Assembly (NCBI RefSeq): GCF_988243305.1
Contig: NZ_OZ547136.1
DNA: 64,000 nt
Reading direction: 5' to 3' (one strand)
Shown here: piece after piece, positions 61,001 to 64,000 of the stretch
Position numbering within the stretch: position 1 is the first letter of the stretch
How the letters are laid out: every line of letters starts with the position of its first letter
Position numbers: made by a program

Positions 61001-64000
61001 AGAGTGTTGCTCAGGATATTGTCGGCTTTAGTCTGAGGTGAGGTGGGGCCTTCATTGTTTTCGTGTTCAATAAATAATTTAGGTTAATTAGTATTATTAG
61101 TGGAAGTTATGTGATCTGTTATGTTGTCTTGTACGCACTTAACACTGGTTACGTACCGGAACACTATTAGAGTATGTTATGGCTCTGTTACAGTTTATAG
61201 GTATGAAAAAATATAATCTTTCCTGTATGAAATAATATTCTTATGGTGTGTGGGGTATGGTCTGTATACCATCATTTTTATGGTGAAGTTAAATATCTGT
61301 AGAGGCCTTAAGCTGGGTCGCTGTTTTTACTTAATGGTACAGAAGTATTAATAGCGGTGTTGCCTGTGGCTACCCGATACTGGCTTTTGTGAATGTCAGA
61401 TTACTTCCTGTAAGTGATTGAATGGTACTTCCTTAAACTCAATTCTATGAGGTGTGTTTTTACCATTGTAATTCGTACTGGTCCTCAGTTTAAGTGAGTC
61501 TTACTGTACTCTGAAATATTACCTCTTTGGAGTAATGAGGTAATACGAAACAGTTTTATCAGGTTGTCTGTGCTGCTGGTTACCTCGTTTATTAATGCCG
61601 CGGTACGGCGTTTCTGTACTCTCAGTATTTATGTAATTCCACCTTCCTGTAACTTTTATAAAGTAAGGACTATAAAATGTATAATGCTAATCCCAATTAC
61701 GAAATGGACTTCATGATTCTGAAAGACGTGAATGAACACATGGAAGGTCTGTTTCAACGTTTTTCTAAACTGTTACCTTTCAGAATTGATTTTGCCTACA
61801 GGAAAGACACGCCCAGTTTTGGTCATTCCTGTAGGCACAGTATGTGTATTGAAATGCACCGCTTACTTAGTGAAACCCAAACGATGCTGGCGGGATATTA
61901 CTGGGTAATGGAATATACGTCAAACAAGGGACTTCATATTCATTTTATCGGCTACTTGGATGGGCAACGTCACAAGAAATTTTATCGGATATCCAGGCAA
62001 CTGGGAGATATCTGGAGTCGGATCACGGAAGGGGAGGGTTATTTTCACCTGTGCAGTACTAAAGACAAATACTCGGTGCGTATCGATCACGTGATTCACT
62101 ATAGTGATAAGTCTGCGGTAGACGGTTTACGTTACGCCCTTAGCTACCTGGCTAAACAGGATCAGAAAGAACACGGTATTATTCTGGGCCGTAGCAGGCT
62201 TCCCGAAAAAAGCAACCGGGGCCGACCACGACATAACTGAATTACAGTTGTATTAGGTATTAAAATTAAGTTTCTGTAAGTTGTTGGGAGGTGCTTGAGT
62301 TAATAGGCAGAAGAGGGCGGGGCGCTTTGTCATCAGTGTAGGGGACCCGAATTTCTGCCGTGGTACCTCAGTGGATCGGATACAGGTAACGAATATGGTT
62401 CATAAATCTGACAGTGATGAATTAGCTGCACTGAGGGCAAACATAACTTGAAGCTTATGGGATTGAATGGCGACGTAAACCGCAGAGTCCTGTGCAGTGC
62501 GTTTCCGTATTATCCACGGATGAGAAAGTTGCGTTATTTTGTCGACTGTTTCGCGGGCGTGATGATGTATGGGCCCTTCGATGGGAAAGCAAAACCAGCG
62601 GCAAATCAGGGTACTTGCGGGCCTGTGCTAACGAATGGCAGCCGGGAATAGCGGTAAACTCCGGATAAAATGTGGGGACTGCGCTCACCGTCAGTTGATC
62701 CCTGTATCTGATCTCATCATCTACCACTACACGGTTTAACGGGGCCGCGTCATCTCGGCGTTGCCCGATAAATTCTTTTCTACGTATAATAACCAGAATG
62801 AACGTGTAAAACACCATAGTATTCAGAACTATAAACATCGAAACCTGCCATATTGACCAGAATAAATGACCTTATTTTTACTGAAATTTAAGGAGAACAC
62901 CGTTGGAAGTAGAAATGTGGGATGGTGGCTTACAAGAACAGGAAGTATTGGCTATCGAGAAAATAAAAGCTGCTTTTTCAGTCAACGTATCTAAGCCTGA
63001 CAAGCCTTTCCGTAGCGGTTCAATTAGTGAGCAGCTAAAAAGCTATGGTTTTATCGGCAATGAAATGTTCCCTTGGAAAGGTTATGCAGGTTTTCGATTT
63101 GTTGAGGCAAAAAAAGAGGGGGAATTCGATTTAGTTATTGTAACACACTGCAACGTGATCATTGTTGAACTGAAAGACTGGAACCATCAGCCTGTAACCG
63201 CACGCGGAGATACTTGGTTTAAAGGCGATAAGAACATGGGGCGCTCGCCAGTAAGCGTGACTCGTAGCAAAAAATTCATGCTGGACAAAAAACTCAAGCG
63301 TCTGGTAGACCGTTTTACGAACAAAGGCTATATCCCGATTGTTCATTTTTTTGTTGTGATGACCGGCAATGCAGATTTCAGCGCGCTGCCGGAGGAACAA
63401 CGGCGCCATACGATCTCGTTAAAAGATTTCCTGAAGTTTGCCGATCGCGGGAGCTTCAATAACTATTTCAAACCGCACCCAGCTACCAAGGTTCTTAACA
63501 AGGATTTCCATCTTTTCGATGATTTGTTCCTAGGGCCTCAGACGGCACCAAAAGCCTTGAGAGTTAATGGCTATGAAGCTAATGATATGATTTTCGAACA
63601 TCCTAAAAAGGTGTATCGAGAATATCTGGCAAAATCTGAGATATCAACGAACAGCGAAGCGCTACTCAGAGTATGGAATTTTAGAAATATAACGGGAACG
63701 AAAGCGAATACCCCGGAAGGACGAGCTCAGATTGTTTCACGTGAGCGCGAAGTGTTACAGCACATCAATCACCAGAATCGTGACCTGTATAACCACTGTC
63801 TCAGGTCTTTGACGAGTTTTCAGAAAGACGAGGTGACGGCCGAGTATAGCGAAGTCTACGAAGTTCCGCCGGGTCATGTCCGGTTTAATGAGTTTATCGG
63901 AAAATATGGTAAGAACTTTTCTGATATGGACCGCTTGAATGTGGTGAAACTGCTCATTGCAAAGTTTAGTGATCTCCATGAGATGAAAATTGCGCACAGG

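What the first reader, a model, noticed from the sequence alone, without database searches (positions are those of the whole stretch)
61677..62240. HUH-motif rolling-circle-type initiator in the island
The YfjJ-like protein has a His-hydrophobic-His triad (LHIHFIGYL) and a downstream conserved Tyr, the signature of HUH endonucleases/relaxases. Together with the DUF3987 protein this suggests the element can replicate autonomously after excision.
Basis: partly seen in the sequence, partly recalled or inferred. Interest (0 to 1): 0.35.

Follow-up and report, generated by a model that had tools for sequence, protein, structure and literature searches.

The report
Rep-type HUH nickase gene in island
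The gene really does encode a small enzyme of the family that nicks DNA to start rolling-circle copying, and it is a core gene of a very common type of E. coli genomic island, but public databases already label it this way and nobody has shown what it does for the island.

Summary
The ORF at 61677-62240 (+, 187 aa) is real and intact. It is identical to RefSeq WP_000282076.1, annotated "inovirus-type Gp2 protein".

A bare His-hydrophobic-His triad means little here: 25% of shuffles of this His-rich protein contain one. Context makes it meaningful. E79, H87, H89, Y157 and K160 are at least 97% conserved across 169 diverse relatives. The AlphaFold model places them on a beta-hairpin and a following helix. 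Fold searches return parvovirus, microvirus and inovirus Rep nucleases. Homologues, K-12 YfjJ and phiX174 gpA all hit Pfam PF23343. The order HUH then Tyr marks it as Rep class, not a Mob relaxase.

So the HUH call is supported, but it is already in public annotation.

The claim of autonomous replication is only an inference. No origin was identified, and no plasmid under 35 kb appeared among the sampled plasmid matches. The DUF3987 helicase neighbour occurs only in the CP4-57/SRL-like lineage. The conserved partner is AlpA, adjacent in 41 of 44 loci.

New side observations:
- a conserved 22-nt upstream element (61076-61097)
- a ribosome-site-masking hairpin in relatives
- one related island deposited as a 41-kb circle

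Interest is modest.

The parts
61677..62240 (+). YfjJ-like / 'inovirus-type Gp2' ORF, 187 aa: Rep-class HUH domain with an RGRPR tail
   Evidence: ORF list and sequence. RefSeq WP_000282076.1. Sub-threshold Pfam hits PF23343 and PF11726. AF2 model with pLDDT 88.6.
61779..61799 (+). Strand beta1, FRIDFAY (residues 35-41). It sits where Rep motif 1 would be. R36 and D38 are invariant.
61896..61958 (+). Beta-hairpin YYWVMEY...LHIHFIGYL (residues 74-94), carrying E79 and the HUH motif H87-I-H89. This is the predicted metal site.
   Evidence: Conservation. Strands E73-81 and E85-95 in the model. hhalign aligns this stretch to the E...HFH of phiX174 gpA and the E...HLH of Pf3 ORF278, and BLASTP aligns it to YfjJ HYH.
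62133..62156 (+). Helix YALSYLAK (residues 153-160). Y157 is the predicted nucleophile, within Y-x-x-K. Y153 is subfamily-specific.
   Evidence: (helix 145-159).
62217..62231 (+). C-terminal RGRPR (residues 181-185). It resembles an AT-hook and lies in a low-confidence tail.
   Evidence: Nearly invariant in A1. G-R-P-R is present wherever the tail aligns in 169 relatives. DNA binding is inferred, not tested.
61076..61097 (+). Conserved 22-nt element AATTTAGGTTAATTAGTATTAT: an imperfect palindrome followed by a -10-like TATTAT. It is a candidate operator/promoter, or an origin region.
   Evidence: Unique in the window, 0.01 expected by chance. The same element lies upstream on the same strand in 23 of 44 loci, with only one match elsewhere in 711 kb, and that one precedes a second gene copy. 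It is also present in L055 and L002.
60857..61676 (.). 820-bp non-coding spacer between the DUF3987 gene and the HUH gene. It is the most AT-rich stretch of the module, with a G+T-rich top strand.
   Evidence: GC 0.34-0.40, AT skew to -0.25, GC skew to +0.32. Only short two- or three-copy repeats. DNA is conserved only in close relatives.
59405..60856 (+). YfjI-like DUF3987 protein, 483 aa, a putative helicase with a GERKT Walker-A-like motif
   Evidence: PF13148 at 282.9 bits, full length; phrog_2373 'DNA helicase'. 41% identical to K-12 YfjI. Motif found.
60880..60910 (+). 13-bp stem-loop, terminator-like, just after the DUF3987 gene
58436..58744 (+). AlpA-family excision regulator
   Evidence: PF05930 at 68.2 bits.
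54130..55332 (+). Tyrosine integrase at the left end of the island
   Evidence: RefSeq annotation of identical DNA. Sequence shared between two chromosomal contexts starts at 53691.
59007..59204 (+). Fragment of a second DUF3987 gene (N-terminal part), a sign of past rearrangement
   Evidence: phmmer E 4e-19 against the intact copy. RefSeq short 'DUF3987 domain-containing protein'.
62395..62730 (+). Frameshifted remnant annotated as a TOTE conflict-system archaeo-eukaryotic primase. This is where the cargo begins.
   Evidence: RefSeq pseudogene in L001 and L002, mapped using the offset of the HUH gene.

Best explanation
The ORF encodes a small Rep-class HUH single-strand-DNA transesterase. It belongs to a divergent branch of the YagK/YfjJ ('inovirus Gp2') family.

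Shown here:
- A ferredoxin-like HUH fold.
- E79, H87 and H89 on a beta-hairpin, which I interpret as the divalent-metal site.
- Y157 (Y-x-x-K160) on the following helix, which I interpret as the nucleophile.
- A conserved basic RGRPR tail.
- The gene is intact and under purifying selection.
- It is a core gene of the CP4-57/CP4-44/SRL-type integrase-AlpA islands and is almost always adjacent to alpA.

Inferred:
- When AlpA triggers excision, the protein nicks one strand of the excised circle at a specific site. That site is possibly near the conserved 22-nt element at 61076-61097.
- The protein becomes 5'-linked through Y157 and primes rolling-circle synthesis.
- In this lineage the DUF3987 protein YfjI supplies the helicase.
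- The product (extra circles, concatemers or single strands) would stabilise the excised island or feed its packaging or transfer.
For: Identity as an HUH Rep-type protein:
- Motif conservation.
- Confident model with topology beta1-alpha-beta2-beta3-alpha-beta4-alpha(Tyr).
- The top Foldseek PDB hit is the B19 NS1 nuclease (E 9e-4), followed by many AAV Rep origin-binding-domain hits.
- BFVD returns 90 hits at E<=1e-3. Nearly all of the named ones are Gp2, microvirus, parvovirus or CRESS Rep proteins.
- 30 of 32 homologues hit PF23343, best E 3.4e-9.
- phiX174 gpA, Pf3 ORF278 and K-12 YfjJ all hit PF23343 above its threshold.
- hhalign of A1 against YfjJ spans the HUH through the Y-x-x-K motif (E 2.4e-5).

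Functional state: dN/dS is 0.17-0.23.

Link to excision: an AlpA gene lies immediately downstream on the same strand in 41 of 44 loci.

Link to a motor ATPase:
- The alpA-yfjI-HUH order is shared with CP4-57, although the two HUH proteins are barely alignable while the YfjI proteins are 41% identical.
- The SRL PAI also lists a YfjI-like DUF3987 ORF followed by Gp2-family ORFs (PMC6980539).
- In another lineage the HUH domain is fused to a HerA/FtsK-type ATPase directly after int-alpA.

Precedents from other elements:
- A PriCT-DUF3987 protein is a 5'-3' helicase (PMC11724360).
- Deleting the DUF3987 'prim' gene lowers the circle/concatemer copy number of PICMI satellites (PMC10803314).
- Pseudomonas int/alpA/Gp2-like islands excise to circles or concatemers and are transduced by phage (PMC12595487).

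Extrachromosomal form: a related island is deposited as a 41,067-bp circular record with no plasmid replicon typing.
Against: - No nicking or replication experiment on any YagK/YfjJ protein was found in the searchable literature.
- The query alone is below the Pfam thresholds: 21.6 against 27.8 bits for PF23343, and 16.7 against 25.8 for PF11726.
- No origin was identified. There is no pC194/phiX-type CTTGATA in the island and no iteron array. The only strong hairpin is allele-specific.
- The 22-nt element reads most simply as a promoter or operator.
- DUF3987 accompanies this subfamily in only 2 of 44 loci.
- In a spread sample of 40 of the 106 matching plasmid records, the smallest was 35 kb, so no small plasmid using this protein as its Rep was seen.
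- PICMI replicates with a DUF3987 'prim' gene and no HUH gene among its described core genes, so YfjI could be the real initiator.
- This island copy shows decay: an IS1 remnant, a DUF3987 fragment and a primase pseudogene.
Confidence: 0.5

Rival explanations
1. The protein is a Rep-type HUH nickase used as a non-canonical relaxase. It would nick an oriT on the excised island so that a co-resident conjugative plasmid or ICE can transfer it, as the MOBT/Rep_trans relaxases of ICESt3/ICEBs1 do. Any replication would be secondary.
For: - In most relatives the gene sits at the head of a divergent arm carrying DUF932, antirestriction, RadC and a toxin-antitoxin pair. By my recollection these genes are typical of plasmid leading regions; this was not checked here.
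- The 41-kb circular relative also carries a T4CP-like 'TraM recognition domain' protein and an SSB.
- One relative is fused to an ATPase that hits TrwB_AAD_bind and HerA.
- RCR-initiator-derived relaxases are an accepted class, MOBT (bioRxiv 10.64898/2026.01.13.699239; PMC6499999).
Against: - The motif order is Rep-like, not Mob-like.
- No T4CP or other transfer gene appears among the recurrent neighbour clusters of 44 loci, nor in the 22 kb annotated downstream of this copy.
- PLSDB types the 41-kb circle as non-mobilizable.
- The related Pseudomonas islands move by phage transduction, not by conjugation (PMC12595487).
Confidence: 0.2
2. The DUF3987 protein YfjI is the real initiator-helicase of the island, like SaPI Rep or PICMI 'prim'. 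The HUH protein would have a different, accessory role, such as resolving or processing replication products, or acting mainly as a sequence-specific DNA-binding regulator of the alpA operon.
For: - PICMI needs only int, alpA and the DUF3987 'prim' gene for excision and replication (PMC10803314).
- The related DUF927 family is reported to be represented by a protein of a mobile genomic island of Staphylococcus (PMC5862659).
- The HUH gene lies upstream of alpA in one apparent operon in 41 of 44 loci. That operon has a conserved promoter-like palindromic element and an SD-masking hairpin, which are hallmarks of a tightly auto-regulated switch.
- The conserved RGRPR tail suggests binding to AT-rich duplex DNA.
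Against: - The whole catalytic set (E, H-x-H, Y-x-x-K) is at least 97% conserved over very divergent relatives, which is not expected for a pure DNA binder.
- Most loci of this subfamily have no DUF3987 gene, so the HUH protein cannot merely assist YfjI.
Confidence: 0.2
3. In this particular island the gene is an inactive relic of a decayed mobile element and does nothing.
For: - Neighbouring decay: an IS1 remnant, a DUF3987 fragment and a primase pseudogene.
- The E. albertii homologue is truncated to 118 aa, and many truncated E. coli variants exist.
- The SD hairpin and the spacing to the 22-nt element are atypical in this allele.
Against: - The ORF is intact, with every conserved residue present.
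- dN/dS is about 0.2.
- DNA that is 99.9% identical occurs in the best-matching genomes, at least 126 records match at >=99%, and the island is found in two different chromosomal contexts, which suggests recent mobility.
Confidence: 0.1

Closest known systems
E. coli K-12 YfjJ / YagK (Pfam PF11726 YagK_YfjJ_C; NCBI name 'inovirus-type Gp2 protein')
   Same: - Same slot in the same module, alpA - yfjI (DUF3987) - HUH gene.
- Same E...H-u-H...Y-x-x-K core, aligned by hhalign at E 2.4e-5.
- RefSeq gives the window protein the same name.
   Different: - Very divergent. BLASTP aligns only 18 residues around the HUH.
- The query scores 16.7 bits on PF11726, against 214.7 for YfjJ.
- It is shorter (187 against 208 aa).
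- CP4-57 lacks the 22-nt element.
- Neither protein has a tested function.
phiX174 gpA and Pf3 ORF278 (Rep superfamily of ssDNA phages; Pfam PF23343 REP_ORF2-G2P)
   Same: - Rep-class motif order. An acidic residue precedes the HUH on the adjacent strand, and Y-x-x-K lies on a helix.
- The short subfamily even has Y-x3-Y-x2-K, like YVAKYVNK of gpA.
- Family members and these phage proteins hit the same Pfam model.
   Different: - Much smaller, consisting of the catalytic core only.
- Motif 1 is R-x-D rather than the u-u-T-u-T type.
- Only one Tyr is family-wide.
- It is encoded in an integrase-dependent chromosomal island, not an ssDNA phage.
- No phiX/pC194-type nick sequence is present.
Parvovirus NS1 / AAV Rep nuclease (origin-binding) domains
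   Same: Best solved-structure matches of the model: 7szy, 7szx, 1m55, 4zo0, 3wrn.
   Different: - Only 10-15% identity and TM 0.3-0.4.
- Those proteins carry a fused SF3 helicase. Here the candidate motor, DUF3987, is a separate gene.
PICMI / PICI-type phage satellites (int + alpA + DUF3987 'prim')
   Same: int, alpA and a DUF3987 gene are co-localised. In PICMI these three suffice for excision and replication (PMC10803314).
   Different: - PICMI are about six genes long, lie next to fis, and have no HUH gene among their six described genes.
- This island is larger than 20 kb, lies next to phoH or clpA, and carries defence and virulence cargo.
Pseudomonas tmRNA islands I23/I44/I55 (PNAS 2025, PMC12595487)
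   Same: Core set of intY, alpA, an inovirus Gp2-like protein and RadC. They excise to circles or concatemers.
   Different: - Different genus and integration site.
- The Gp2-like gene was not functionally tested there either.
- Transfer by a jumbo phage was shown only for I55.

Membership tests
HUH endonuclease superfamily, Rep class | HUH motif: two His separated by a hydrophobic residue, on a beta-strand, and conserved | tested here: met
   H87-I-H89 lies on strand 85-95 of the model. H87 is conserved in 168 and H89 in 167 of 169 relatives.
HUH endonuclease superfamily, Rep class | Catalytic Tyr on a helix C-terminal to the HUH (Y-x-x-K) | tested here: met
   Y157 and K160 lie on helix 145-159/160. 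Y157 is conserved in 165 of 169 and K160 in 162 of 169. hhalign aligns them to YMTK of YfjJ.
HUH endonuclease superfamily, Rep class | Third metal ligand or acidic residue near the HUH, plus a motif-1 strand | tested here: inconclusive
   E79 (168/169) aligns with the Glu of phiX174 and Pf3.
HUH endonuclease superfamily, Rep class | Fold similar to solved HUH nuclease domains | tested here: met
HUH endonuclease superfamily, Rep class | Metal-dependent ssDNA cleavage and joining through a 5'-phosphotyrosine | not testable with these tools
   This is biochemistry. No report was found for this family.
Pfam PF23343 REP_ORF2-G2P | Score at or above the gathering threshold (27.8 bits) | tested here: not met
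   The query scores 21.6 bits, E 2.6e-4. At family level, 30 of 32 homologues match at E<=0.01, best 3.4e-9. phiX174 gpA (33.3), Pf3 ORF278 (33.4) and YfjJ (29.9) pass.
Pfam PF11726 YagK_YfjJ_C | Score at or above the gathering threshold (25.8 bits) | tested here: not met
   The query scores 16.7 bits. 28 of 32 homologues match at E<=0.01. It is best described as a divergent sister branch. RefSeq nevertheless uses the family name.
Mob-class HUH relaxases (MOBF/P/Q/V) | Catalytic Tyr N-terminal to the His motif | tested here: not met
   The only family-wide conserved Tyr is C-terminal to the HUH. There are no relaxase Pfam hits.
Autonomous rolling-circle replicon | Recognisable double-strand origin or nick site next to rep | tested here: inconclusive
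   No CTTGATA in the island. No conserved hairpin. No iterons. A conserved 22-nt element of undecided role is present.
Autonomous rolling-circle replicon | The protein serves as the Rep of small plasmids or phages | tested here: not met
   PLSDB returns 106 records. In a spread sample of 40 of them the smallest was 35 kb, and most are 110-kb Acinetobacter plasmids or mis-filed chromosomes. Only 2 phage records match, both 82-kb Acinetobacter contigs.
PICMI-like satellite | int + alpA + DUF3987 'prim' co-localised | tested here: met
   The definition comes from PMC10803314.
PICMI-like satellite | Minimal size (about 6 genes), next to fis, induced by a helper phage | tested here: not met
   The island extends more than 20 kb beyond int and lies next to phoH. 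Induction is not testable here.

The most novel reading that the evidence does not exclude
YagK/YfjJ-family HUH nickases, co-expressed with AlpA from a tightly gated operon, may be the long-missing replication or mobilisation initiators of the CP4-57/CP4-44/SRL-type integrase-AlpA islands. The operon carries a conserved 22-nt operator-like element and an SD-masking leader hairpin. These islands are among the commonest in Enterobacterales and carry much defence and virulence cargo. The nickase would act on the excised circle at or near the 22-nt element, recruit interchangeable motor ATPases (DUF3987, HerA/FtsK-like), and produce concatemers or single strands that helper phages or plasmids then move.
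Probability: 0.3. Interest if true: 0.6.

Novelty: already known. Interest (0 to 1): 0.33.

Why it matters
Islands with a P4-type integrase and AlpA are found throughout Enterobacterales and Pseudomonas. Examples are CP4-57, CP4-44, CP4-6 and the SRL PAI, along with many defence islands. They move toxins, resistance genes and anti-phage systems. How they persist after excision, and how they are copied for transfer, is mostly unknown.

A conserved, catalytically intact Rep-type nickase wired to the excision regulator is the obvious candidate, and it can be tested directly with a Y157F allele and oligonucleotide nicking assays. As a finding in this window, however, it restates a public annotation and adds no experimental knowledge. 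Its immediate value is therefore modest.

Tried and rejected
1. Sequence searches of the PDB with the protein and with the family profile found nothing relevant, only lectins at E about 0.1. NCBIfam gave no hit.
2. The strong 16-bp-arm hairpin inside the ORF (61793-61837, -24.9 kcal/mol) was considered as an internal origin, as in phiX174. It was rejected because it is already lost in a 93%-identical allele and absent in all other homologues.
3. A pC194/phiX-type nick core, CTTGATA, has only two matches in the window. Both are far outside the island and fewer than chance would give.
4. Iterons or tandem repeats in the 820-bp spacer: only 8-17-nt two- or three-copy matches were found, compatible with chance.
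5. DNA-level conservation of the spacer was tested with nhmmer. It is conserved only in near-identical relatives.
6. RNAalifold on a MAFFT alignment of the leaders gave no structure because the arms were misaligned. This was replaced by per-sequence folding with shuffles.
7. A search for a distal att repeat of the left junction within 50 kb found only local RtT-like tandem units. The right end of the island was not located.
8. Rfam returned nothing in 58-64 kb.
9. hhalign against single phiX174 and Pf3 sequences aligned only the E-HUH hairpin, with low probability. This is supportive of register only and is not independent proof.
10. No literature on YfjJ/YagK biochemistry was found.
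Full report
**What is there.** The coordinates are exactly those of an ORF: 61677-62240, + strand, ATG start, 187 aa, with an AAGGA ribosome-binding site 8 nt upstream. 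LHIHFIGYL is residues 86-94 and YALSYLAK is residues 153-160.

The window comes from E. coli. DNA that is 99.9% identical occurs in the best-matching complete genomes, and 2134 of 5426 genomes have a match. RefSeq annotates this very protein (WP_000282076.1) as "inovirus-type Gp2 protein" or "YagK/YfjJ domain-containing protein".

The gene lies in an island whose left end is a tyrosine integrase. In order, the island contains:
- the integrase (54130-55332)
- a 605-aa unknown gene on the minus strand
- an IS1 remnant
- AlpA (58436-58744)
- a fragment of a DUF3987 gene (59007-59204)
- an intact YfjI-like DUF3987 gene (59405-60856)
- an 820-bp non-coding spacer
- the ORF in question
- a frameshifted "TOTE conflict system" primase remnant, followed by large cargo genes that run off the window

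In the window the island lies after putA-putP-efeUOB-phoH. In another genome the same island lies after clpA. The shared DNA begins at window position 53691.

**Is the observation more than chance?** The triad alone is not. The protein has 12 histidines, and 25% of shuffles contain H-hydrophobic-H. Conservation is what makes it meaningful.
- In 32 full-length homologues of 35-90% identity, H87, H89, E79, Y153 and Y157 are at least 90% conserved, and R36, D38, W113, T117 and K160 are invariant.
- A whole-library profile search finds 2395 representatives. Many are 340-400 aa proteins with this domain at the C-terminus.
- Among 169 of these, R36, D38, E79, H87, H89, W113, Y157 and K160 are at least 96% conserved, and T117 and C126 about 94%.
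- Y153 is kept only in the short subfamily.

The family-wide signature is therefore E...H-u-H...Y-x-x-K. Against its nearest relatives the gene has dN/dS of 0.17-0.23.

**Is it an HUH protein?** Several independent lines agree.
- Pfam, query alone. The query gives only sub-threshold hits: PF23343 REP_ORF2-G2P at 21.6 bits (threshold 27.8) and PF11726 YagK_YfjJ_C at 16.7 bits (threshold 25.8).
- Pfam, relatives. 30 of 32 homologues hit PF23343 (best E 3.4e-9) and 28 of 32 hit PF11726.
- What PF23343 models. I checked this directly. phiX174 gpA, the textbook rolling-circle initiator, hits it over residues 200-350, which contain FDTLTL, HFH and YVAKYVNK. Pf3 ORF278 and K-12 YfjJ also pass its threshold.
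- Profile alignment. The family profile aligns to YfjJ from the E-HUH hairpin through Y-x-x-K (E 2.4e-5). It aligns to the E...HUH hairpins of phiX174 and Pf3.
- Structure model. AlphaFold2 with the family alignment gives pLDDT 88.6. The topology is beta1 (FRIDFAY), helix, beta2 (WVME), beta3 (LHIHF), helix, beta4, then the Tyr helix.
- Foldseek against the PDB. The B19 NS1 nuclease ranks first (E 9e-4), followed by many AAV Rep domains.
- Predicted viral structures. There are 90 hits at E<=1e-3. Nearly all of the named ones are Gp2, microvirus, parvovirus and CRESS Rep proteins.

Because the conserved Tyr follows the HUH, the protein belongs to the Rep class rather than the Mob relaxase class. 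I put the HUH Rep-class assignment at about 0.9. Nicking activity itself is untested for any member of the family in the literature I could search.

**Context across relatives.** I compared 43 loci from other genomes with the window. The sources were a genome-collection scan, which gave 43 loci of which 40 were used, and three contig look-ups.
- An AlpA-family gene lies immediately downstream on the same strand, 48-173 bp away in the loci where the gap was measured. This holds in 41 of the 44 loci compared.
- A divergent arm upstream carries a YfjP-like GTPase, a WYL regulator, DUF932, an antirestriction protein, RadC and a CbeA/CbtA pair. This is the backbone of the CP4-57/CP4-44-type elements.
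- DUF3987 is adjacent only in the window and in E. albertii.
- The order alpA-yfjI-HUH gene is nevertheless shared with K-12 CP4-57. There the YfjI proteins are 41% identical, but the HUH proteins align over only 18 residues. The SRL PAI ORF table likewise lists a YfjI-like DUF3987 ORF followed by Gp2-family ORFs (PMC6980539).
- Two very divergent HUH branches occupying the same slot behind the same helicase suggests a functional pairing. So does a 799-aa protein in another genome, which fuses this HUH domain to a HerA/FtsK/TrwB-type ATPase directly after int-alpA.

**What the literature adds.**
- A PriCT-DUF3987 protein is a 5'-3' helicase (PMC11724360).
- In PICMI satellites, int, alpA and a DUF3987 'prim' gene suffice for excision and replication. 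Deleting prim lowers circle/concatemer copy number (PMC10803314).
- Pseudomonas tmRNA islands with intY, alpA, RadC and an "inovirus Gp2-like protein" excise to circles or concatemers and are transduced by a jumbo phage. The Gp2-like gene was not tested (PMC12595487).

**Search for an origin.** Nothing convincing was found.
- The strong hairpin inside the ORF is allele-specific.
- There is no CTTGATA in the island.
- The 820-bp spacer is AT-rich and strongly strand-skewed but has no iteron array.
- The spacer DNA is conserved only among near-identical relatives.
- One conserved piece does exist: a 22-nt element, AATTWAGGTTAATTRGTATTAT.
  - It is unique in the window, at 61076-61097, with 0.01 expected by chance.
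  - It is present upstream on the same strand in 23 of 44 loci. The single match elsewhere in 711 kb lies upstream of a second gene copy.
  - Several other loci, seven of the eight examined, carry a related TTTGGGTTTTTAGTATAAT box.
  - It usually lies 92-189 bp from the predicted ORF start, about 580 bp in the window, and 1.15 kb in a related circle.
  - It reads most simply as a -10 box with an operator-like palindrome. It could also be the protein's recognition or nick region. I cannot decide between these.
- In 14-15 of 18 lineages the Shine-Dalgarno sequence is buried in an 8-10-bp hairpin whose arms differ between lineages (z -2 to -8). In the window allele this hairpin is weak.

**Evidence bearing on autonomous replication.**
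- For: one related island (62% identical HUH protein, integrase at one end, toxin-antitoxin/DUF4942 genes at the other) is deposited as a 41,067-bp circular "plasmid" with no replicon typing. It is in effect an excised island assembled as a circle.
- Against: in a spread sample of 40 of the 106 matching plasmid records, the smallest was 35 kb. No small plasmid or ssDNA phage using this protein as its Rep was seen.
- Against: PICMI manages with a DUF3987 'prim' gene and no HUH gene among its described core genes.
- Against: this island copy shows decay around the module.

**Verdict.** It is a Rep-class enzyme, not a Mob-class relaxase. It is also already the public annotation, so its novelty is low.

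The most likely mechanism is a Y157-dependent nick on the AlpA-excised circle that primes rolling-circle synthesis, with YfjI as the helicase in this lineage. I put this at about 0.5. It remains an inference by analogy.

The rivals are:
- a MOBT-like relaxase role (about 0.2)
- an accessory or regulatory role, with YfjI as the true initiator (about 0.2)
- a relic with no function (about 0.1)

The conserved HUH-alpA operon, its 22-nt element and its leader hairpin are the only items here that I did not find described elsewhere.

Noticed in passing
window 61076-61097 (also L055 8188-8209; 22 other loci): A conserved 22-nt element, AATTWAGGTTAATTRGTATTAT, lies upstream of YfjJ-like genes on the same strand in 23 of 44 loci, with essentially no matches elsewhere. 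Its distance to the gene varies from 92 bp to 1.15 kb. Seven of eight other loci examined carry a related TTTGGGTTTTTAGTATAAT box. Whether it is a promoter/operator or an origin is undecided.
   Followed up: partly
about 40 nt upstream of the start codon in L003, L006, L015, L018, L027-L029, L033-L038 and others; window 61632-61676: The Shine-Dalgarno sequence of YfjJ-like genes is sequestered in an 8-10-bp hairpin whose arm sequences differ between lineages (compensatory changes, z -2 to -8). An AAAAATTACA box precedes it. The window allele has only a weak version (-4.5 kcal/mol).
   Followed up: partly
L055 = CP088535.1 (41,067 bp, circular): A record filed as an E. coli plasmid is in fact a CP4-44-type island closed on itself. 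The integrase is at one end and DUF4942 with a toxin-antitoxin pair at the other. It carries a Gp2-like gene, a T4CP-like protein and an SSB, and has no replicon typing.
   Followed up: partly
L053 8001-10400 (GCA_003051055.1): A 799-aa protein fuses the YagK/YfjJ HUH domain to a HerA/FtsK/TrwB-type P-loop ATPase. It lies directly after a P4-type integrase and AlpA.
   Followed up: partly
window 53691-54130, RtT-like hit at 53777-53911 (-): The left edge of the island DNA, shared between the phoH and clpA contexts, starts at 53691 and contains tandem ~180-bp RtT-like units (43.5 bits, just under Rfam's 45). No tRNA gene is found anywhere in the window. From memory, RtT units of the tyrT operon carry tRNA-Tyr 3'-end segments, so they might serve as the integration target.
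   Followed up: partly
window 59007-59204: An N-terminal fragment of a second DUF3987 gene lies just upstream of the intact one. This implies a past duplication or recombination within the module.
   Followed up: no
window 62395-62730 and onward to 64000: RefSeq annotates a frameshifted 'TOTE conflict system archaeo-eukaryotic primase' remnant. After it come a 1652-aa AAA-domain protein and a 478-aa hypothetical protein, which look like defence-type cargo starting right after the HUH gene. In one other genome (strain W46) the adjacent feature is annotated as a DEAD/DEAH helicase.
   Followed up: no
window 55519-57336 (-): A 605-aa ORF between the integrase and the IS1 remnant has no Pfam hit better than E 0.25. 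RefSeq calls it hypothetical.
   Followed up: no
window 60857-61676: The 820-bp non-coding spacer has a marked strand asymmetry: the top strand is G+T-rich, with GC skew up to +0.32 and AT skew down to -0.25. It has no Rfam hit. It may be a long leader or a non-coding RNA specific to this lineage.
   Followed up: no
window 52237-52430 (-): A strong Rfam hit to Ysr251 (192.8 bits) lies antisense within the 3' end of the 354-aa ORF (51371-52435) that corresponds to phoH.
   Followed up: no
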